A stretch of DNA of 42,600 nucleotides from an uncultured archaeon (GTDB taxonomy: Archaea > Iainarchaeota > Iainarchaeia > Iainarchaeales > 1-14-0-10-31-34), in NCBI GenBank assembly GCA_964442255.1, contig CAYTYC010000011.1:1-42600 (forward strand). The letters run 5' to 3'. Below are positions 30,001 to 36,000 of the stretch, piece after piece. Numbering within the stretch: the first letter of the stretch is position 1; each line of letters opens with the position of its first letter. The position numbers were made by a program.

Positions 30001-33000
30001 CAGTGGACATAATCGGAAACCCGCATTCCTGCATTGTGGACGGCTTGAGCACAATGGTTGAAGGCAATCTGGTGAAAACGCTTTCATGGTATGACAATGA
30101 ATGGGCTTATTCACTCAGGCTGACTGAATTAATGAAAAAAGTTTCCGGTTAAAGAGGAGTGAAAAATGGCTTTGGAACCCCTTCCATTAAACCAGGTCAA
30201 GGGAAAAACCGTTGCCCTCCGCCCTGACATTAATTCCGCGGTCGTGGATGGAAGGCCTTTGGAGTCCCCGCGCATTTCCGCGCACGCGAAAACCCTGGTT
30301 TCCATTTCTTCCGCCGGCGCAAAAACCGTTGTTCTCGCGCACCAGGGAAGAAAGGGGCAGGAGGACTTTGTTTCACTTTCCGGGCATGCTTCCCTTTTGG
30401 AAAGCCTTTCAGGAAAAAAAATTGAATTCATCGCAAAGGAAAAGGAATTGTTTGAAAGAATTCCGTCCCTTAACTGCGGGGAAATTTTGCTTTTCGAGAA
30501 CATGCGTTTTTTTGAATGGGAGGAAAACGAAAAAAGCCCGGAGGAGCACTCCAAAAACCCTTTCATCCAAAGGCTTGCCTCTCTCACGGATTTCTTTGCC
30601 TTGGACGGCTTTTCCGTTGCCCACCGCTCACATGCTTCTGTTGTGGGCTTAATTCCGCTTCTTCCTTCTTTTATGGGCCCGGTTTTTGACTCGGAATTCA
30701 GTTCCCTTTCAGGGCTGTATTCCTCTGAGGGAACCCGCCTTTTAATTCTCGGGGGGGCGAAGCCCAAGGACTCCCTGAAGGTGCTGAAAAACATTCTGGA
30801 AAAGAATTCCGCGGCCAAAGTCCTTTTGGGAGGGCTTTTCGCCGAGCTTTTCCTTAAGGCGCAGGGCTTTTCATTGGGGGCAAAGGAAAAATTTTTTGAG
30901 GAAAAGGGCTTCAACGAATTTGTGGGGCCGGCAAAAAAGCTTTTGGATTCGTTTGCCTCAAAGCTTGAGCTGCCCGTGGATTTGGCTTTTGAGGCAAACA
31001 ATGAGAGAAGGGAATGCAGGGTGGAAGACCTTCCCGGGAATTACATGGTAAAGGACATAGGCTCTTTAACCGCCTCAAAGTTTGAGAAATTTGTTTCACA
31101 GGCTGACTTCATTTTCTGGAACGGCCCTTTGGGCGTGTTTGAGGAAAAAAACTTTTCTTTTGGAACCAAAACCGTTGCCGAAGCCGTTTCCTCCTCCAAG
31201 GCGTTTTCCCTCATAGGCGGAGGCGATACGGCAACTTCCCTGGAAAAGCTCGGCTTTGCTTTTTCAGATTTTTCTTATGTAAGCCTTTCCGGGAAGGCCG
31301 CATTGAAGTTCATTGCGGGGGAAACCCTTCCCGCACTTGAAGCCCTCAGGGAGGCAAAAAATGCATAAGCCCCGGATGTTCAGGCTTGCGCGGAAGGATT
31401 TGCCTTCTTACCTCGGCTGGCTCGCAAAAAGGCATGAATTGTTTGTTCCCACAGAGAAACTGAACGGCGGCAGCAGCTTCGAGCCGTTCACCGGCCAGGA
31501 ACCCGGGCTTGACTCGCTTACCAGTTACCCGATTAAAAAGTTTTTTTTGCCCCCAAGGGAACAACTTCTCCAGTTCAGGCGGCAGAGAAAAAATTTTTCA
31601 TCCAAAAGCCTTTCCGAAGCAAAATCAACGGTTTTGTTTGGCGTCAAAAGCTGTGACTTAAGGGATATGCTGAAGCTGGACAACGTTTTCCTTGAACAGA
31701 AACCGGTTGACCCGTATTACGGGGAAAAAAGGGAAAAAACTTTTTTGATTGGCTTGGACTGCCTGGAGGCGGATGAACACTGCTTTTGCACTTCTGTCGG
31801 CGCCCACATTCCCACAGGTTTTGATTTGATGTTCTGGAGGAAGGGAAAGGATTTTTTCATTGAGCTCGGTTCGGAGAAAGGAAAAAGGCTTATCTCCCCG
31901 CACATGAAGAAAACGGCTTACACTAAATTCCACCCGAAACAGGAATGCAAAGTGAAACTGAAGTTGGCGGACCTCACAAACAATTTGCGCTCCAGCTTTG
32001 ACCACCCTTACTGGAAGGAACTGGAGGAAAAGTGCCTTGGCTGCGGAACCTGCACGCAGGTCTGCGGCTGCTGCTACTGTTTTTTCATGGAAGAGCACTC
32101 CCTCCCCAACTCCAAAACCTCGGTCCGGAGACGGGAATGGGATTCCTGCATGCTTGCGCAGTTTTCGGAGGTTGCCGGCAACCACGTGTTCCGTGAATCC
32201 AGGGCTTCGCGCCTGAGGCAGAGGATTTTCCACAAATTTGTGTGGTTTGAGTCAACTTACGGTGAAATTGGCTGCACGGGGTGCGGGAGATGCAGCAGGG
32301 AATGCACTGCCCGCATTTTTATTGAGGACATCCTCAAAAAACTTGGGGAAAAAGGGGGAAAAAAATGAACCCGTATGCGCCTGAAAAAGCCAAAATATTG
32401 AAGGTGAAGGAGGAAAACCCTTCCATTAAAACCTTCACCGTGCGTTTTGATTCAGGGAAAAAACAGGAAAATTTTTCCTTTCTTTCCGGCCAGTTCGTTG
32501 AAGTTTCAGTTCCCGGGGCAGGGGAGTTTCCCTGCTCAATTTCTTCTTCTCCTTTCAGGAAAAAATCCTTTGACTTGACTGTTTCACTGCAGGGAAGGGT
32601 GAGCGAAAAAATGCATTCCCTGAAGAAAAATTCGTTCATCGGGGTCCGCGGCCCGTATGGAAACTCTTTTCCCGCCCAAAAACTGAAGGGAAAGCATTTG
32701 AACATTGTTGCCGGCGGACTGGGGCTTGCGCCTTTGCGCTCAGTAATCCAGTATGCGTTGGACGAGAAAAGGGAGTTTTCTTCTTTGAACATTTTCTTCG
32801 GCGCCCGCTCACCAAGGGAACTGATTTTCAGGAATGATTTAAGGCACTGGAAAAGTTTGAAGGACGTGAATGTTGTGGTTACGATAGACAAAAAGGACCC
32901 CGACTGGAAGGGCTGCACCGGGCTGGTGGCAGACGTTTTAACCCCTAAAACCCTTCCAAAACAGAATTCCCTTACCTTGATTTGCGGTCCCCCGCGCATG

Positions 33001-36000
33001 ATTGACTGCACAGCCAGGCAGCTCCTCTCCTACGGTTTTTCCGACAGGGAAATGTTTGTTTCCCTTGAAAGGTTAATGCATTGCGGGATTGGAAAATGCA
33101 ACCACTGCGCGGTCGGCGAGCACCGGGTTTGCGTGGAAGGGCCCGTGTTTTCGTTCCATGAAATGAAGAGGTTTCCGCATGAAGAATAAACTTTTTAAAA
33201 AAAAGTTTAATCAAAAGAACCTTTTTGAGAAAAAGGTTCATCAAAAAGCAGGCGGGAAAGTGCCTTACGGCAATAATAAAAAAAAGAAACTGCGTGCAGG
33301 CTTTTTTTCCTTCACCGGCTGCGAGGGATGCCAGCTCACTGTTCTTGAGGCTTTGCAGGAGCACCCTGAACTGTTAAAGCTTTTCAGTGTTGAATACAAC
33401 AAACTTTTAAAGGACTGCAAACTAAAAGGAACTTATGGCGTGGCTTTTGTGGAGGGCAGCATCTCCAACAAGGAAACATTAAAGAAAGCGCAGGAAGTGA
33501 GGAAAAAATCCCGTTACCTTGTTGCATTGGGCTCCTGCGCAACCAATACCTGCGTGAACGGCTTCCGAATGCGGGTTCCGGCTGAAGTGAGGAAACAGAT
33601 TGAAAGGGAGAGGGGCGGAAAAAAAGATTTCGGGGTTTTTCCACTGAAAAAATTTGTTGAGGTTGACTTTGAGTTAAGGGCCTGCCCGCCGATAAAGGAA
33701 GAGCTCATTGAATTCATTTCAGATTTTTATTCAGGGATTAAGCCAATTGAACGCGACTTTCCTGTGTGCAAGGAATGCAAGGAAAACGAGAATGACTGCG
33801 TTTTCCTGCGCGGAATTCCCTGCCTTGGCCCAATCACCCGCGGAGGATGCAATTCCGTGTGCGTGAATGAGGGCGCCCAGTGTTTTGGCTGCAGGGGATT
33901 AAGCAGGGAAGCCAATCTTCCCCGTTTCAGGGAACTCTTAAAGGAAATCGGGCTCTCTAAAACGGAAGTAAATGAGCTCTTGAATGAGTTCAGCGCTGAA
34001 ATGGGGCTGAAAAAAGGTGAGCGGAACAGGGTTAGGCAGGGCGGAGGAAAAGGGGGCTGAAAAAATGAGCGAAACATGGTTGAGGCAGAGGAAAAAGGGC
34101 TGAAAAAAAATGCATAACCTTGATTTAAGCATCACCGGTTTAAGCAAGGTGGAAGGGCACGCTTCCCTCACCGTAAAGGTGCGGAACGGAAAGGTTTTGA
34201 AAAGCAGGCTGGAGATAGAGGAGAACAGGAGGTTTTTTGAGCAAATGTCCGTGGGAAAGGACTTTAAAACCTTGCCTGACTTCATGTCCCGAATCTGCGG
34301 AACCTGTTCTCCCGCGCATTTTCTCACAACACTTGAGGCTGTTGAGGACGCATTCAATGTGAAAATCTCGCGCCAAACTTTGGTTTTAAGGCACCTGATT
34401 GAATTCGGAATGTACATCCGCGACCATTCCCTTCACTTGCTTATTTTTTCGCTTCCCGATTACCTTGGCAAAAAATCTATTTTGGATTTTAAGGGTCGGG
34501 AGCACGAGTACCTGCATTTGGCGATGCGCCTCCAGAAGCTTGGCTCCAACTTAAGCAGGCTTGTTGCAGGCCGCGCACTCCACCCAATAAGCGCAAGGAT
34601 TGGAGGGTTCAGGAACTTTCCTTCGGAACAGGAAATTGATGCTGTTCTCAAGGAGCTTTTGAACGGAAGAAAAGACGCCTTGAAACTGATTGACTTGTTT
34701 AGTTCCTTCCATTACGTTTGCCACCAGCCCACCGTTTACTCCGCTTTGGTGAACAAGGATTACACTTTTCTTGAGGGAAAGATTTGCGCGTCCACAGGCC
34801 TGTGCATTAATGAGCGCGATTACCTGAAGCATTTGAAGGAAAAGGTCGTGCCTTACTCGAACGCAAAGCAGTCCGAACTGCAGGGAAAAGAGTTTTTGGT
34901 TGGCGCGCTTTCCAGAATGAACTTGAACCAGAAATCCCTCCACAAGGGCACAGGAAGGGTGATAAAGGAAAAGAAAATCAAATTGGTGTGCTTTTCCCCT
35001 TTTTCCAACAACTTGGCGCAGGCAATTGAAGTCTTGCATTGCCTGGATTGCGCCGTTGAATTGCTTCGCTCCCTGAAAATCCGGCAGGAAAAAATCCCGG
35101 AATTTAGGCCCCGCGCAAAGGAAGGAATAGGCGTAACCGAGGCCCCGCGCGGAACCCTCTATCACGCCTACAAATTCAATGCTTTGGGAAAGGTTTCCGG
35201 CGCAAACATTGTTGTTCCCACCGCACAGAACGCGAAAAACATTGAGAAGGACGTGAAGCTTTACCTCTCTTATTTAACCGGATTAAAGAAGAACAAAACT
35301 GAAATCCGCACCGAATTGGAGAAGTTGATCCGCGCCTATGACCCCTGTTTTTCCTGCTCAACGCACTTTTTGAAGATGAAGTGGGTTTAATTGATTCCTT
35401 TTGCTTGGCGGGCTTTCGATATATTTAAATTAGATTTATCCAATTTAGATTATTGGGTAATAAACTGGTTTTAGGTGAATGGAAAAAAATCAAAAAGTAT
35501 GCCGGCCAGTGGGTTGCGGTTTGCAGAAATAAAGTTATTGCCCACGGGAAAGACGGCAAAACGGTTTACAGGGAAGCACTCCGTGCCTGCAGTGCTCCTC
35601 GGATTTTCCAAGTGCCTGATGAATCAGACGAAGTGTACCTTTTATGGTTTTAGTTTTTGACTACCACCAGATAGGCAAACGGTTTCTTCCAATAATTCCA
35701 GTCAAAATTGGGGGTGGCGGCATTAAGCTGATTGAAACGGAAGCGTATGTTGACTCTGGGGCCGGTTTTTCGGCTTTCCATACTGCCATTGCAGAACTTG
35801 CCGGTATTGATTACAAAAAAGGGGGGCTCGTTTATCCAAAGGTAACAGCCGGGCACATTAAGGCGCATAAAGTGGCTGCTGAGCTTGCCATTGGAAGCAC
35901 TAAATTTAAATGCAGTGTGCTGTTTTCCAAGGGGCTAATGACAAGGTTTAACCTGCTTGGCTTGAAGGGAGTTTTCGACAATTTCAAACTAACGTTTGAC

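What a model noticed while it worked through the whole genome (the two positions that open the first line are those of the whole stretch)
31361..35390. A complete group-3b-type [NiFe] hydrogenase operon with intact metal ligands but no HypD, HypE or HypF to build its Fe(C [...]
g00751-g00754 (C11:31361-35390) encode the four subunits of a sulfhydrogenase-like (group 3b) [NiFe] hydrogenase. The large subunit g00754 (426 aa) keeps both pairs of cysteines that hold the Ni-Fe site (RICGTCS at 61-67 and DPCFSCSTH at 411-419) and a 7-residue C-terminal tail of the kind removed during maturation. Yet of the six Hyp maturases the genome has only a HypC-like gene (g00760, C11:38601-38822). HypD and HypF are absent in a six-frame search, and no HypE-type AIRS protein is called. 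The same holds for the relatives: hydrogenase in 6 of 9 genomes of the family, HypD and HypF in none. All known [NiFe] hydrogenases need HypCDEF to make and insert the Fe(CN)2CO group, so either these [...]
Evidence so far: Pfam and Swiss-Prot rows: Fer4_22 / FAD_binding_6+NAD_binding_1 / Oxidored_q6 / NiFeSe_Hases, best hits sulfhydrogenase subunits beta, gamma, delta, alpha; motifs and hyp-like Pfam rows of the whole genome (only HupF_HypC on g00760; AIRS domains only on ThiL, PurL, PurM). Six-frame family searches: NiFeSe_Hases PF00374 in 6 of 9 family genomes; HypD PF01924 in 0 of 9 and in 2 of 55 genomes of the order that are at least 90% complete; zf-HYPF PF07503 in 0 of 9; the Hyp models ring in the 4 control genomes that have [NiFe] hydrogenases. 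relatives.tsv: NiFeSe_Hases in at least 63 of 195 genomes of the order. A paper search (DPANN, NiFe, HypD, maturation, group 3b; call 163) listed no report of [...]
(Added by a program. Inside this text positions count along the whole contig: contig position 1 is position 1 of the stretch shown here. "Call 12" and the like, gene names such as g00115 and contig names such as C1 are that model's own, and its searches are not shown. The text may have been shortened before it was handed on; [...] marks where a part breaks off. The agent that wrote the report below was given it as the finding of a first reader that could run no searches.)

Follow-up and report, generated by a model that had tools for sequence, protein, structure and literature searches.

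The report
Hydrogenase operon with alternative maturation cassette
A small archaeal genome carries an intact nickel-iron hydrogenase but none of the three enzymes thought indispensable for building its iron-cyanide-carbonyl centre; in their place it has a conserved transporter-plus-scaffold gene pair that also replaces them in many other microbes, which points to an undescribed way of making this cofactor.

Summary
Window 31361-35390 encodes a four-subunit, sulfhydrogenase-like (group 3b-type) [NiFe] hydrogenase with all four Ni-Fe cysteines. HypD, HypE, HypF, HypA and HypB are undetectable six-frame in this 93.8%-complete genome.

- a divergent HybD/HycI endopeptidase (36496-36876, minus strand);
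- an EamA transporter (36917-37819);
- a DUF6390 protein (37812-38609), a Cys/His-rich helical domain fused to a HypC-like fold;
- HypC (38601-38822, minus strand).

In the window's order, 70 of 196 genomes have the hydrogenase. Of these, 57 carry DUF6390, 7 a short DUF6390-like form, 4 hypDEF and 2 neither; none has both. In an independent Chloroflexota class the split is 54 DUF6390, 27 HypD, 0 both.

Two congeneric genomes have 83%-identical large subunits. In one, hypD-hypE-hypF lies between hypC and the hydrogenase genes; in the other, a DUF6390-like gene plus EamA lies there.

Best reading (about 0.6): a HypDEF-independent maturation route, with DUF6390 and HypC as the iron scaffold. The source of CN and CO is unknown. 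No paper in the searched library names DUF6390. All evidence is computational.

The parts
29061..31368 (+). gap (29061-30152) and pgk (30166-31368), directly upstream on the same strand. The pgk stop overlaps the start of the first hydrogenase gene.
   Evidence: Pfam Gp_dh_N/Gp_dh_C and PGK; coordinates. This suggests co-transcription of NAD(P)H-producing glycolysis with the hydrogenase (inference).
31361..32368 (+). Hydrogenase beta subunit (Fe-S, AsrA-like)
   Evidence: Pfam Fer4_22 97.1 bits; NCBIfam sulfhyd_ShyB 181 bits, below cut-off 690
32365..33189 (+). Hydrogenase gamma subunit (FAD/NAD(P)-binding, 2Fe-2S)
   Evidence: Pfam NAD_binding_1, FAD_binding_6, DHODB_Fe-S_bind; NCBIfam PRK08345 249.3, sulfhyd_HydG 220.7 bits
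33179..34060 (+). Hydrogenase small (delta) subunit
   Evidence: Pfam Oxidored_q6 71.9 bits; NCBIfam sulfhyd_ShyD 175.6 bits; sequence
34110..35390 (+). Hydrogenase large (alpha) subunit, 426 aa, with RICGTCS 61-67, EAPRGTLYH, DPCFSCSTH 411-419 and the tail FLKMKWV
   Evidence: sulfhyd_ShyA 264.7 bits. It is 41% identical to the large subunit of a HypDEF-bearing genome of the same order.
35644..36036 (+). 130-aa retropepsin-like ORF. Probably not part of the system.
   Evidence: Weak Asp_protease_2 / clan AA hits below cut-offs. It falls in no conserved neighbour cluster.
36496..36876 (-). Divergent [NiFe]-hydrogenase maturation endopeptidase (HybD/HycI type), 126 aa
   Evidence: NCBIfam TIGR00072 E 5.2e-6, 26.5 bits, below cut-off 47.45. 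Model pLDDT 81.8. Foldseek top hits are HybD 5ija_A (E 2.9e-8, TMq 0.73) and 1cfz_A (E 2.4e-6). It clusters with neighbours in 14 of 81 loci. A cluster member passes Pfam HycI. Invariant residues G9 N10 D16 D55 H81 D82.
36917..37819 (+). EamA/DMT-family transporter, 300 aa, the conserved partner of DUF6390
   Evidence: Pfam EamA 128 bits. NCBIfam TIGR00950 carboxylate/amino acid/amine transporter 54.3 bits, below cut-off. Directly upstream of DUF6390 in 44 of 81 loci, on the same strand in 98% of members. No conserved Cys or His.
37812..38609 (+). DUF6390 protein: helical N-domain with an invariant Cys and a His cluster, fused to a HypC-like OB domain with an invariant Cys and His. It carries an in-frame exact 69-nt tandem duplication at 38245-38382.
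   Evidence: Pfam DUF6390 173.1 bits. Alignment A1 invariants. Model of a 45%-identical homologue: pLDDT 94.3, pTM 0.92. HypC 2z1c_A is the top structural match: Z 5.8, rmsd 1.9, 71 of 71 residues. Duplication.
38601..38822 (-). HypC-family chaperone, 73 aa, MCLTLPGKV...
   Evidence: Pfam HupF_HypC 30.1 bits, cut-off 28.5. The only such hit in the genome. A HypC gene lies near DUF6390 (within the 9 kb examined; median offset about 0.6 kb) in 55 of 81 loci.

Best explanation
The window encodes a working, cytoplasmic, NAD(P)-linked group-3b-type [NiFe] hydrogenase. It is probably co-transcribed with gap-pgk and probably disposes of glycolytic reducing power as H2. Its metal centre is built without HypD, HypE and HypF. 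Their place is taken by a conserved cassette next to the operon: an EamA-family transporter, a DUF6390 protein and a HypC, plus a divergent HybD-type endopeptidase.

Proposed course, all inferred unless marked:
1. DUF6390 holds the iron between the invariant Cys of its helical N-domain and the invariant Cys/His of its HypC-like domain. This copies in one chain what HypD Cys41 and HypC Cys2 do in the HypCD scaffold (those residue roles are recalled from the literature).
2. The diatomic ligands come from a source not encoded in the cassette. Either a small polar metabolite moved by EamA supplies them, or free CO and cyanide do. This step is unknown.
3. The loaded iron passes to the free-standing HypC, which inserts it into the large subunit. 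A complex prediction gives weak support for DUF6390-HypC contact.
4. Nickel enters without HypA or HypB in this genome.
5. The endopeptidase removes the 7-residue tail after His419.

Shown here: presence and integrity of the parts, real absence of HypDEF, and the alternating distribution and synteny of the two cassettes.
For: ABSENCE IS REAL. HypD, HypF and HypE are not found in the own genome.
- In the order, hydrogenase is in 70 of 196 genomes.
- HypD is over cut-off in 4 of 196 and HypF in the same 4 at E<=1e-25. HypE is over cut-off in 3 of them.
- The single-contig genome G083 (1,241,428 bases, 99% complete) has the hydrogenase but none of these.

THE CASSETTE TRACKS THE HYDROGENASE.
- DUF6390 is in 58 of 196 order genomes, and 57 of those have the hydrogenase.
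- HypC is in 66 of 196, and 63 of those have it.
- DUF6390 rings in 0 of 14 control genomes.

MUTUAL EXCLUSION.
- The 70 hydrogenase genomes split into 57 DUF6390, 7 short DUF6390-like, 4 hypDEF and 2 neither, with none carrying both. Contrasts occur within genera g21, g22 and g73.
- The short form is homologous to DUF6390: hhalign probability 96.5%, E 9e-10, 159 columns.
- Independent replicate, the class of a Chloroflexota genome, 201 genomes drawn evenly: hydrogenase 89, DUF6390 55 (54 of them with hydrogenase), HypD 27 (all with hydrogenase), both 0. Eight genomes with single weak hydrogenase hits have neither.
- The same roughly 780-bit group-1-like large subunit occurs with either partner.

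IN-SITU REPLACEMENT.
- G180 reads HypA-HypC-HypD-HypE-HypF-small-large-protease.
- Congeneric G184 reads HypA-HypC-[157-aa DUF6390-like]-EamA-small-large-protease.
- Their large subunits are 83% identical over 424 residues without gaps. Their HypCs are only 39% identical.
- The four highest HypC scores in the order belong to the four hypDEF genomes.

SYNTENY ACROSS PHYLA, 81 loci:
- HypC near DUF6390 (within 9 kb, median offset about 0.6 kb) in 55;
- EamA directly upstream in 44;
- large subunit in 40;
- small subunit in 34;
- protease in 14;
- no HypD/E/F cluster.
A Chloroflexia genome assembled almost wholly into one 2.57 Mb contig (G241) has Tat-small, large, cytochrome b, HycI, HypA, HypC, EamA and DUF6390 in a row. 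It has no HypD and no HypF.

THE ENZYMES LOOK ACTIVE. 39 of 41 large-subunit ORFs beside DUF6390 keep RxCGxC and 39 of 41 keep DPCxxCxxH; the misses are split or partial ORFs.

THE DUF6390 FOLD. The model has pLDDT 94.3. Its C-terminal domain superposes on all 71 residues of HypC 2z1c_A (Z 5.8, rmsd 1.9). Invariant residues are C20, H126, C150 and H210, plus P14, N15, H125, H129.

DUF6390-HypC COMPLEX (G083 pair). Verdict: weak support. The score was 0.49 and the best of 3 controls 0.00. The three runs agree in at least 91% of contacts and the partner pLDDT is at least 76. The mark was reached by 116 of 157 solved complexes and by 2 of 215 mismatched pairs. At 0.60 or under it was reached by only 18 of those 157 solved complexes, and by both mismatches that passed.
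Against: - There is no biochemical or expression evidence of any kind.
- The cassette encodes no ATP-using or radical enzyme that could make CN or CO. No HydG-like gene is in the genome. The key chemical step therefore has no candidate.
- Exclusion is not absolute. In a sample chosen for having DUF6390, 6 of 50 genomes also have HypD: five Acidimicrobiia-titled records and one Nanoarchaeota-titled record. In the Acidimicrobiia locus examined, DUF6390 lies beside FtsH-like, YkuD and MurJ genes, not a hydrogenase.
- HypB is also missing from 45 of those 50 genomes. The swap is therefore not demonstrably specific to HypDEF.
- Several features would fit a nickel-handling or sensing role. DUF6390 sits next to NikA-like ABC transporters in 13 loci, and next to a CDF transporter and HypA in one locus. 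It is fused to PadR or HTH domains in some proteins.
- The N-domain has no structural match.
- The window's own DUF6390 gene carries an in-frame duplication of the Cys motif that might impair it. Its HypC barely passes the Pfam cut-off.
- At class level only HypD was searched. HypF was checked in 5 of these genomes, and HypE in none outside the order.
- Genomes are mostly bins, and kin are not independent.
Confidence: 0.6

Rival explanations
1. HypD/E/F exist but were missed, because the genome is an incomplete bin or the genes are too divergent for the models.
For: The genome is 93.8% complete in 51 contigs. One maturase, the endopeptidase, really was too divergent for Pfam.
Against: In the order, 66 of 70 hydrogenase genomes lack HypD and HypF, including a single-contig 1.24 Mb genome. 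54 hydrogenase genomes of a Chloroflexota class also lack HypD, one of them almost wholly a single 2.57 Mb contig. Where the genes occur in the same order they are canonical: HypD 292-396 bits, and full-length HypF 676-730 bits. Scores are bimodal with nothing in between. The gene order in G184 shows other genes in the slot that hypDEF occupies in G180.
Confidence: 0.03
2. DUF6390 and EamA serve nickel supply or sensing, as a substitute for HypB/HypA or a regulator. The Fe(CN)2CO group is made by something else not yet identified, for example moonlighting housekeeping paralogues such as Sua5/Kae1 and ThiL/PurM.
For: NikA-like ABC transporter genes follow DUF6390 in 13 of 81 loci. A CDF transporter and HypA lie beside it in L034. 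PadR- and HTH-fused DUF6390 proteins exist, and an ArsR gene follows it in L091. Cys/His-rich invariant residues suit nickel. Canonical HypB is absent from 45 of 50 DUF6390 genomes and from the own genome. Sua5-, Kae1- and AIRS-type paralogues are present.
Against: In the G180/G184 pair HypA is kept on both sides, and exactly hypD-hypE-hypF is replaced. DUF6390 coexists with HypA (9 loci), with a CobW/HypB-family GTPase (9 loci) and with canonical HypB in two HypD-less genomes. Its C-domain keeps the Cys and His of HypC, an iron-handling chaperone. EamA has no conserved Cys or His, as a metal transporter might.
Confidence: 0.17
3. The organism is an episymbiont that obtains the finished iron synthon, or the maturation service, from its host. 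The cassette only receives it.
For: The genome is small at 1.28 Mb. The cassette is common in DPANN- and CPR-titled records. A transporter is part of the cassette.
Against: The same cassette, with the same lack of HypD, is found in 2-5.7 Mb Chloroflexota, Armatimonadota, Ktedonobacteraceae and Nocardioides-titled genomes. These are unlikely to be obligate symbionts. No transport of such a complex is known (recalled).
Confidence: 0.1
4. The hydrogenase is inactive, or works with a different iron ligand set so that HypDEF chemistry is not needed. It could be a relic or a protein with another role.
For: No activity data exist. The subunits score far below the equivalog cut-offs.
Against: All four metal cysteines and the PRG..H motif are kept here. 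Both Cys motifs are kept in 39 of 41 cassette-linked large subunits, and the PRG..H motif in 28 of 41. A cleavable tail, a dedicated endopeptidase and HypC are maintained. Large subunits that are 83% identical, and near-identical 780-bit group-1 enzymes, are served by either cassette. This argues for the same cofactor.
Confidence: 0.1

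Closest known systems
Sulfhydrogenases I and II of Pyrococcus furiosus (group 3b [NiFe] hydrogenases; NCBIfam HydBGDA / ShyBCDA)
   Same: Four subunits with the same domain content. The best family match of each subunit is its sulfhydrogenase counterpart. The large subunit has both Cys pairs and a short C-terminal tail.
   Different: Scores are far below the equivalog cut-offs (for example 264.7 against 700). No phylogenetic placement was made here. The accompanying maturation genes differ: there is no HypA, B, D, E or F.
Canonical HypABCDEF plus endopeptidase pathway (E. coli, Thermococcus kodakarensis)
   Same: HypC and a HybD-fold endopeptidase are present. The large subunit has the cleavable tail. 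Four genomes of the same order carry a textbook hypC-hypD-hypE-hypF cluster beside the same kind of hydrogenase.
   Different: HypD, HypE and HypF, held to be necessary for the Fe(CN)2CO group (abstract of PMC12134894, seen), are absent. HypA and HypB are absent as well. An EamA transporter and DUF6390 stand in the hypDEF position.
HypC/HybG/HupF chaperone family (solved: 2z1c, 2ot2, 3vyr)
   Same: The C-terminal 90 residues of DUF6390 superpose on the whole HypC chain: Z 5.8, rmsd 1.9, 71 of 71 residues. They keep a Cys at the start of the barrel and a His near its end.
   Different: The Cys is internal (position about 150), not residue 2 of the chain. A 150-residue helical domain with its own invariant Cys and His cluster precedes it. 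Sequence similarity to HypC is marginal: profile E 0.21 against PDB, and no NCBIfam hit for the long form.
Archaeal [FeFe] hydrogenases without HydE/F/G (Greening et al., Cell 2024, PMC11216029; passages read)
   Same: The same kind of puzzle. [quoted passage not shown] The authors infer an alternative pathway.
   Different: That concerns another enzyme class and cofactor, and no replacement genes were named there. Here a specific replacement cassette is identified for [NiFe] enzymes.
CPR 'hyd1/hyd2' group-3b-related hydrogenases (Jaffe et al., BMC Biol 2020, PMC7304191; passages read)
   Same: Small-genome lineages with 3b-related enzymes, a hypC-like family in the neighbourhood, truncated small subunits and a Pyr_redox_2 neighbour. 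The same is seen here in G085, G184 and G083.
   Different: The paper's main text does not contain the word 'maturation' (0 occurrences). It does not discuss missing HypDEF, or DUF6390/EamA.

Membership tests
Group 3b [NiFe] hydrogenase (sulfhydrogenase type) | Large subunit with the N-terminal RxCGxC and C-terminal DPCxxCxxH metal-binding motifs | tested here: met
   RICGTCS 61-67 and DPCFSCSTH 411-419; Pfam NiFeSe_Hases 105 bits. The motif definitions are recalled.
Group 3b [NiFe] hydrogenase (sulfhydrogenase type) | Heterotetramer: large and small subunits plus an AsrA-like Fe-S subunit and an AsrB-like FAD/NAD(P) subunit, encoded together | tested here: met
   Four adjacent genes with these domains. 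The best NCBIfam hits are ShyB, HydG/ShyC, ShyD and ShyA.
Group 3b [NiFe] hydrogenase (sulfhydrogenase type) | Scores above the curated equivalog cut-offs, or phylogenetic placement inside group 3b | tested here: inconclusive
   All four subunits fall below the equivalog cut-offs (181/690, 220.7/650, 175.6/460, 264.7/700). No reference tree (HydDB) was available.
Group 3b [NiFe] hydrogenase (sulfhydrogenase type) | H2/NAD(P)H activity | not testable with these tools
   No activity or RNA data; no RNA run holds the stretch.
Canonical Hyp maturation system | HypC chaperone with an N-terminal Cys | tested here: met
   MCLTLPGKV; Pfam 30.1 bits against cut-off 28.5
Canonical Hyp maturation system | HypD [4Fe-4S] scaffold | tested here: not met
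   No six-frame match at E<=10. Present in 4 of 196 order genomes.
Canonical Hyp maturation system | HypE and HypF (cyanide synthesis from carbamoyl phosphate) | tested here: not met
   hypE best 73.6 bits against cut-off 251.6, in an AIRS-type ORF I read as ThiL. hypF best 35.5 bits against cut-off 466.1.
Canonical Hyp maturation system | HypA and HypB (nickel insertion) | tested here: not met
   HypA best 21.5 bits against cut-off 28.9, in a rubrerythrin-like ORF. hypB best 17.4 bits against cut-off 121.2.
HybD/HycI hydrogenase maturation endopeptidase (for 36496-36876) | HybD fold | tested here: met
   Foldseek: 5ija_A E 2.9e-8, TMq 0.73; 1cfz_A E 2.4e-6, TMq 0.73. 9 matches at E<=0.001: eight are chains of four named hydrogenase maturation protease entries (5ija, 1cfz/2kml, 2e85, 5ttx) and the ninth (3pu6) is an uncharacterised protein. 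Model pLDDT 81.8.
HybD/HycI hydrogenase maturation endopeptidase (for 36496-36876) | Family HMM above the curated cut-off | tested here: not met
   TIGR00072 26.5 bits against cut-off 47.45. No Pfam HycI hit even at E<=10. Cluster mates L030, L110 and L113 do pass HycI.
HybD/HycI hydrogenase maturation endopeptidase (for 36496-36876) | Acidic/acidic/His metal-binding triad (Glu16, Asp62, His93 in E. coli HybD; recalled) | tested here: inconclusive
   D16, D55 and H81 are invariant in 14 sequences, at positions that fit. No residue-level superposition was made.
Pfam DUF6390 (PF19927) (for 37812-38609) | Match above the gathering score | tested here: met
   173.1 bits against cut-off 25, in two stretches because of the internal duplication
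HypC/HupF family (for the C-domain of DUF6390) | OB-barrel plus C-terminal helix, superposable on HypC | tested here: met
   2z1c_A Z 5.8, rmsd 1.9, 71 of 71 residues; 2ot2 Z 4.6. The next rows are generic OB folds at Z<=4.5.
HypC/HupF family (for the C-domain of DUF6390) | Cys as the first residue of the mature protein | tested here: not met
   The invariant Cys is internal: C150 of P0009, in the motif DSCRISWG.
EamA / drug-metabolite transporter family (for 36917-37819) | Two EamA repeats | tested here: met
   Pfam EamA 128 bits, 2 stretches. The substrate is not inferable: TIGR00950 54.3 bits against cut-off 230.2.

The most novel reading that the evidence does not exclude
EamA plus DUF6390 (long or short form), together with a co-evolved HypC, make up a second, HypD/HypE/HypF-independent pathway for building the Fe(CN)2CO half of the [NiFe] cofactor. 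In this sample it serves most hydrogenase-bearing genomes of the window's DPANN-type order, and about two thirds of those in a Chloroflexota class. It serves enzymes of several hydrogenase groups. It would imply a different biochemical origin of the CN and CO ligands.
Probability: 0.5. Interest if true: 0.95.

Novelty: categorically new. Interest (0 to 1): 0.88.

Why it matters
[quoted passage not shown] HypCDEF are regarded as the only route to the Fe(CN)2CO group.

If a transporter plus a 240-residue scaffold can replace three enzymes, one of them a 700-residue carbamoyltransferase, several things follow:
- The origin of the diatomic ligands must differ, and it becomes experimentally approachable. 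This includes the long-unsolved anaerobic CO source.
- Genome surveys that require hyp genes to call a hydrogenase functional would misjudge H2 metabolism. This applies to DPANN archaea, CPR bacteria and soil Chloroflexota.
- A much smaller gene set might suffice for heterologous production of [NiFe] hydrogenases.

It would also give Pfam DUF6390 a function.

Tried and rejected
- Weak family hits examined and dismissed. The best hypE-model hit is a 327-aa AIRS-type ORF without a C-terminal Cys, next to an ORF I read by eye as ThiC. The second hit is PurM-like. The best HypA hit is a rubrerythrin-like ORF. The hypF-model hits are an acylphosphatase-sized piece, Sua5- and Kae1-like pieces, and a 575-aa ORF.
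- That 575-aa ORF reads like a NodU/CmcH-type carbamoyltransferase, between a membrane ORF and a glycosyltransferase-like ORF (by eye, not tested with Pfam). I considered it as a HypF stand-in. I dropped it for its polysaccharide-type context and did not test its distribution.
- The retropepsin-like ORF at 35644-36036 was considered as a substitute tail protease. It was rejected because it is not conserved beside hydrogenases and a true HybD-fold protease is present.
- A HydG-like radical-SAM source of CO and CN: none in the genome (13.9 bits).
- Fold of the DUF6390 N-domain: no Foldseek match at E<=0.001. The all-against-all aligner filled its list with the OB domain, so the N-domain is barely tested. 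The protein atlas gave no usable hit. Profile against PDB sequences gave only weak HypC rows.
- Expression: no RNA holder listed for 31361-39200.
- Paper searches that failed or were useless: term too short; phrases beginning 'hyp' matched 'hyper...'; listed no paper with HypF; one irrelevant paper.
I then searched 50 of the 80 loci's genomes, chosen by me to span the named taxa.
- One search failed on a reference with stop codons and was re-sent without it.

Full report
WHAT IS IN THE WINDOW

On the plus strand, gap (29061-30152) and pgk (30166-31368) run straight into four hydrogenase genes:
- 31361-32368: Fe-S beta subunit;
- 32365-33189: FAD/NAD(P) gamma subunit;
- 33179-34060: small subunit;
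- 34110-35390: large subunit.

Each subunit's best curated family is the matching sulfhydrogenase subunit of the Pyrococcus type. All scores are far below the equivalog cut-offs. So this is a 3b-like enzyme, not a close orthologue. The large subunit has RICGTCS at 61-67, EAPRGTLYH, and DPCFSCSTH at 411-419, followed by the tail FLKMKWV.

ABSENCE OF THE Hyp ENZYMES IN THIS GENOME

Six-frame searches of the 1.28 Mb, 51-contig, 93.8%-complete assembly gave:
- HypD: nothing, even at E<=10.
- zf-HYPF: 9.7 bits.
- hypF model: best 35.5 bits against a cut-off of 466.
- hypE model: best 73.6 bits against a cut-off of 251.6. That hit is an AIRS-type ORF that ends GFEHF and that I read as ThiL. The next hit is PurM-like.
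- HypA: nothing credible; the best hit lies in a rubrerythrin-like ORF.
- HypB: nothing credible.

The control genomes with [NiFe] hydrogenases rang in every one of these searches.

Between the operon and the HypC gene lie three further genes.

(a) 36496-36876, minus strand, 126 aa. Pfam sees nothing here, even at E<=10, and the six-frame HycI search missed it. NCBIfam's hydrogenase maturation protease model aligns over nearly its whole length at E 5.2e-6. A model built on 14 neighbours-of-hydrogenase homologues has pLDDT 81.8. Its best structural matches are HybD of T. kodakarensis (E 2.9e-8, TMq 0.73), HybD of E. coli (E 2.4e-6) and several HycI entries. It is the tail-cleaving endopeptidase.

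(b) 36917-37819: an EamA/DMT transporter.

(c) 37812-38609: a Pfam DUF6390 protein at 173 bits. Its stop overlaps the stop of the convergent HypC gene (38601-38822, minus strand).

WHAT DUF6390 IS

An alignment of 38 homologues shows invariant C20, G21, H126, C150, G155, H210 and W211. Nearly invariant are P14, N15, H125, H129, D148 and R151 (numbering of P0009).

A model has pLDDT 94.3 and pTM 0.92. It consists of a helical domain (1-150), a small beta-barrel (153-217) and a final helix. The barrel plus helix superposes on the entire HypC chain of T. kodakarensis: Z 5.8, rmsd 1.9 A, 71 of 71 residues, model 148-237 on chain 2-72. E. coli HypC comes second at Z 4.6. The remaining rows are generic OB folds.

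The invariant C150 therefore sits where HypC has its essential N-terminal Cys. The helical domain found no match, but it was barely tested.

A shorter family of 157-181 aa lacks the central His-rich segment. It keeps one N-domain Cys, the barrel Cys and two His. It is homologous: hhalign probability 96.5%, E 9e-10.

DISTRIBUTION IN THE WINDOW'S ORDER (196 genomes)

| Family | Genomes |
|---|---|
| Hydrogenase large subunit | 70 |
| HypC | 66 (63 with hydrogenase) |
| DUF6390 | 58 (57 with hydrogenase) |
| HypD over cut-off | 4 |
| HypF at E<=1e-25 (3 over the curated cut-off) | the same 4 |
| HypE over cut-off | 3 of those 4 |

- The one DUF6390 genome without a hydrogenase hit is an 81%-complete bin that also has HypC.
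- The fourth hypDEF genome is fragmented at the spot where HypE would lie.
- None of the four hypDEF genomes has DUF6390, and none of the 57 has HypD/E/F.
- Of the 9 hydrogenase genomes left over, 7 have a second, weak HypC-like hit in a 159-190-aa ORF beside HypC. I confirmed three of them (G184, G093, G085) as the short DUF6390-like form next to EamA.
- Two bins (83% and 85% complete) have neither.
- The contrasts occur inside genera: g21 (G054 against G055), g22 (G059 against G056-G058), and g73 (G180 and G183 against G181, G184, G188 and G194).
- The single-contig genome G083 (1,241,428 bases, 99% complete) has, in 4 kb, HypC, DUF6390, EamA, the endopeptidase, and the large and small subunits. 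It has no HypD/E/F.

THE CLEAREST SINGLE RESULT

Two genomes of one genus have the same gene order around the hydrogenase, except for the middle:
- G180: HypA, HypC, HypD, HypE, HypF, small subunit, large subunit, endopeptidase.
- G184: HypA, HypC, a 157-aa DUF6390-like protein, EamA, small subunit, large subunit, endopeptidase.

Their large subunits are 83% identical over 424 residues without a gap, with identical metal motifs and tails. Their HypC proteins are only 39% identical. The four best HypC scores in the whole order are those of the four hypDEF genomes: 97.1, 92.6, 87.8 and 86.8 bits, with the next at 74.3.

HypC therefore comes in two flavours that go with its partner. That is what one expects if DUF6390 takes the place of HypD as HypC's partner.

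A complex prediction for the G083 DUF6390-HypC pair gave only weak support:
- Score 0.49; best of 3 controls 0.00.
- The three runs agree in at least 91% of contacts, and the partner pLDDT is at least 76.
- The mark was reached by 116 of 157 solved complexes and by 2 of 215 mismatched pairs.
- At 0.60 or under it was reached by only 18 of those 157 solved complexes, and by both mismatches that passed.

BEYOND THE ORDER

DUF6390 is encoded in at least 591 species genomes. The record titles range from Woesearchaeota, Iainarchaeum, Micrarchaeia and several CPR groups to Chloroflexota, Thermomicrobiales, Acidimicrobiia, Dormiibacterota, Armatimonadota, Ktedonobacteraceae and Nocardioides.

Clustering the ORFs within 9 kb of it in 81 loci (80 plus the window) gave:
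- HypC in 55 loci;
- EamA directly upstream in 44 (same strand in 98% of members);
- large subunit in 40;
- small subunit in 34;
- the endopeptidase cluster in 14, including the window's;
- a NikA-like binding protein in 13;
- NifU-Rieske in 10;
- HypA in 9;
- a CobW/HypB-family GTPase in 9;
- no HypD, HypE or HypF cluster.

The adjoining large subunits are of several kinds (405-647 aa). 39 of 41 ORFs keep each Cys motif; the misses are split or partial ORFs.

I searched 50 of the 80 loci's genomes, chosen by me to span the named taxa:
- 46 have a hydrogenase.
- 6 have HypD: five Acidimicrobiia-titled records and one Nanoarchaeota-titled record that gave no hydrogenase hit.
- So 41 of 46 hydrogenase genomes lack HypD.
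- 5 of 50 have canonical HypB.
- HypF was absent from all 5 genomes tested.

One of those five is a Chloroflexia genome that is almost wholly a single 2.57 Mb contig. Its operon reads Tat-signal small subunit, a 781-bit group-1-like large subunit, cytochrome b, HycI, HypA, HypC, EamA, DUF6390 and ArsR.

UNBIASED REPLICATE

The replicate is 201 genomes drawn evenly from the class of that Chloroflexia genome:
- hydrogenase in 89;
- DUF6390 in 55, of which 54 have the hydrogenase;
- HypD in 27, all with the hydrogenase;
- both in none.

The 8 remaining hydrogenase-hit genomes have single weak hits (E 1e-9 to 1e-15) and neither partner. Large subunits scoring about 750-780 bits occur with HypD (for example G377, G442, G342) and with DUF6390 (G290, G241, G378, G300).

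One genome of this sample, G335, is flagged unpublished. It counts as one of the 55 and one of the 89, and removing it changes no conclusion.

Caveats: kin are not independent, completeness is not given for this sample, and only HypD was searched at this scale.

INTERPRETATION

Incompleteness and divergence cannot explain these numbers. The host-supply idea fits DPANN and CPR lineages, but not 2-5.7 Mb Chloroflexota. An inactive enzyme is hard to square with conserved ligands, a kept tail, a kept protease and HypC, and near-identical enzymes served by either cassette.

I therefore read EamA plus DUF6390(-like) plus its own HypC type as a functional alternative to HypD/E/F.

The structural logic is a HypC-like Cys/His barrel joined to a second Cys-bearing domain. 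This suggests a one-chain analogue of the HypC-HypD iron site. The roles of HypC Cys2 and HypD Cys41 are recalled from the literature, not tested here.

What I cannot explain is the chemistry. Nothing in the cassette looks able to make cyanide or CO, and no HydG-like enzyme is present. The transporter has conserved Asn, Lys, Glu and Arg residues but no conserved Cys or His. Its nearest curated family is a carboxylate/amino acid/amine transporter, at a sub-threshold score.

A serious rival (0.17) is that DUF6390/EamA concern nickel. The evidence is the Nik-like neighbours, the HTH fusions, and the fact that HypB is mostly missing too. Against it, HypA is kept on both sides of the G180/G184 swap, and DUF6390 coexists with HypA, CobW-like GTPases and sometimes HypB.

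The Acidimicrobiia-titled genomes that have both DUF6390 and HypD show the two are not strictly incompatible. In the one such locus I examined, DUF6390 lies beside FtsH-like, YkuD and MurJ genes.

PHYSIOLOGY (inference)

The gap-pgk-hydrogenase arrangement, in a genome of this size, fits a fermenter that re-oxidises NAD(P)H from glyceraldehyde-3-phosphate oxidation by making H2. This role has been proposed for 3b enzymes of Woesearchaeota (PMC8421398, passages read).

LITERATURE

- No paper in the held library contains 'DUF6390' or 'PF19927'.
- None holds 'EamA', 'HypC' and 'hydrogenase' together.
- A search for alternative, unknown or novel maturation with NiFe and HypD gave one irrelevant paper.
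- The Woesearchaeota paper (PMC8421398) and the CPR paper (PMC7304191) report 3b enzymes, but 'maturation' occurs 0 times in their main texts. The CPR paper notes a hypC-like family nearby and speaks of function supported 'with unknown genes'.
- In the 2025 review PMC12134894 I saw the abstract and 12 passages. None mentions organisms without HypDEF.
- The nearest precedent is the [FeFe] case in archaea (PMC11216029, passages read).
- Subscription journals, supplements and work after late 2026 were not searched.

Noticed in passing
window 38245-38382: There is an exact in-frame 69-nt tandem duplication (2.0 copies, 100% identical) inside the DUF6390 gene. It repeats 23 residues, including the invariant DSCRISWG Cys motif. 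In the contigs of two DNA runs the 69-nt unit stands at about twice the flanking depth, and a 60-nt piece bridges the repeat junction. It is therefore real in the population and not an assembly slip. Its effect on function is unknown.
   Followed up: yes
window 35644-36036: A 130-aa ORF just after the large subunit has weak retropepsin / clan AA aspartic protease similarity, below the cut-offs. It is not conserved next to hydrogenases elsewhere.
   Followed up: partly
window 29061-31368: gap and pgk lie immediately upstream of the hydrogenase genes on the same strand, and the pgk stop overlaps the first hydrogenase start. This suggests one transcription unit linking glycolytic NAD(P)H to H2 formation.
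   Followed up: no
G000 contig C2, locus L008 658-2385: A 575-aa ORF weakly matches the Kae1-like part of the hypF model. By eye it reads like a NodU/CmcH-type carbamoyltransferase, between a membrane ORF and a glycosyltransferase-like ORF. It belongs to the same enzyme superfamily as HypF. Its distribution relative to hydrogenases was not tested.
   Followed up: no
order genomes of families f10 and f11, e.g. G050:C14:156663-157652: There is a second kind of large-subunit hit. It matches the Pfam model strongly only at positions 1-69 and weakly or not at all at the C-terminus (ORFs of 397-502 aa). It is often a second hydrogenase-like gene in the genome. Its ligands and type were not examined.
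   Followed up: no
G047, G048, G049, G051, G172, G155: AIRS-family ORFs of 314-381 aa score 89-103 bits against the hypE model. That is well above the ThiL-type hit of the own genome (73.6 bits) but far below the cut-off. Their identity was not determined. They do not follow the hydrogenase distribution.
   Followed up: no
L054 9479-10717; P0097; L091 10803-11192; L055 and L054 downstream genes: In Chloroflexia-titled records DUF6390 is fused to a PadR domain, or in P0097 to ArsR/MarR-type HTH domains. It is followed by an ArsR gene or by a NikA-like binding protein and two permeases. This hints at a metal- or ligand-sensing use of the domain.
   Followed up: partly
L035 (Acidimicrobiia-titled record) 8268-13486: Here DUF6390 lies beside an FtsH-like AAA+/M41 protease, a YkuD transpeptidase and MurJ, not a hydrogenase. 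Genomes of this group have both DUF6390 and HypD.
   Followed up: partly
L036, L047, L086, L090, L099 (CPR-titled records): The large subunits beside DUF6390 end exactly at the His of DPCxxCxxH, with no tail to cleave. No endopeptidase cluster member is in these loci.
   Followed up: no
window 6001-8000: There is a strong AT skew (-0.553) at 41.6% GC over a 586-aa minus-strand ORF (6354-8114). Not examined.
   Followed up: no
window 38875-39147 (minus strand): A 90-aa ORF between leuS and HypC is extremely rich in Arg, Lys and Pro and has no family match. It may not be a gene.
   Followed up: no
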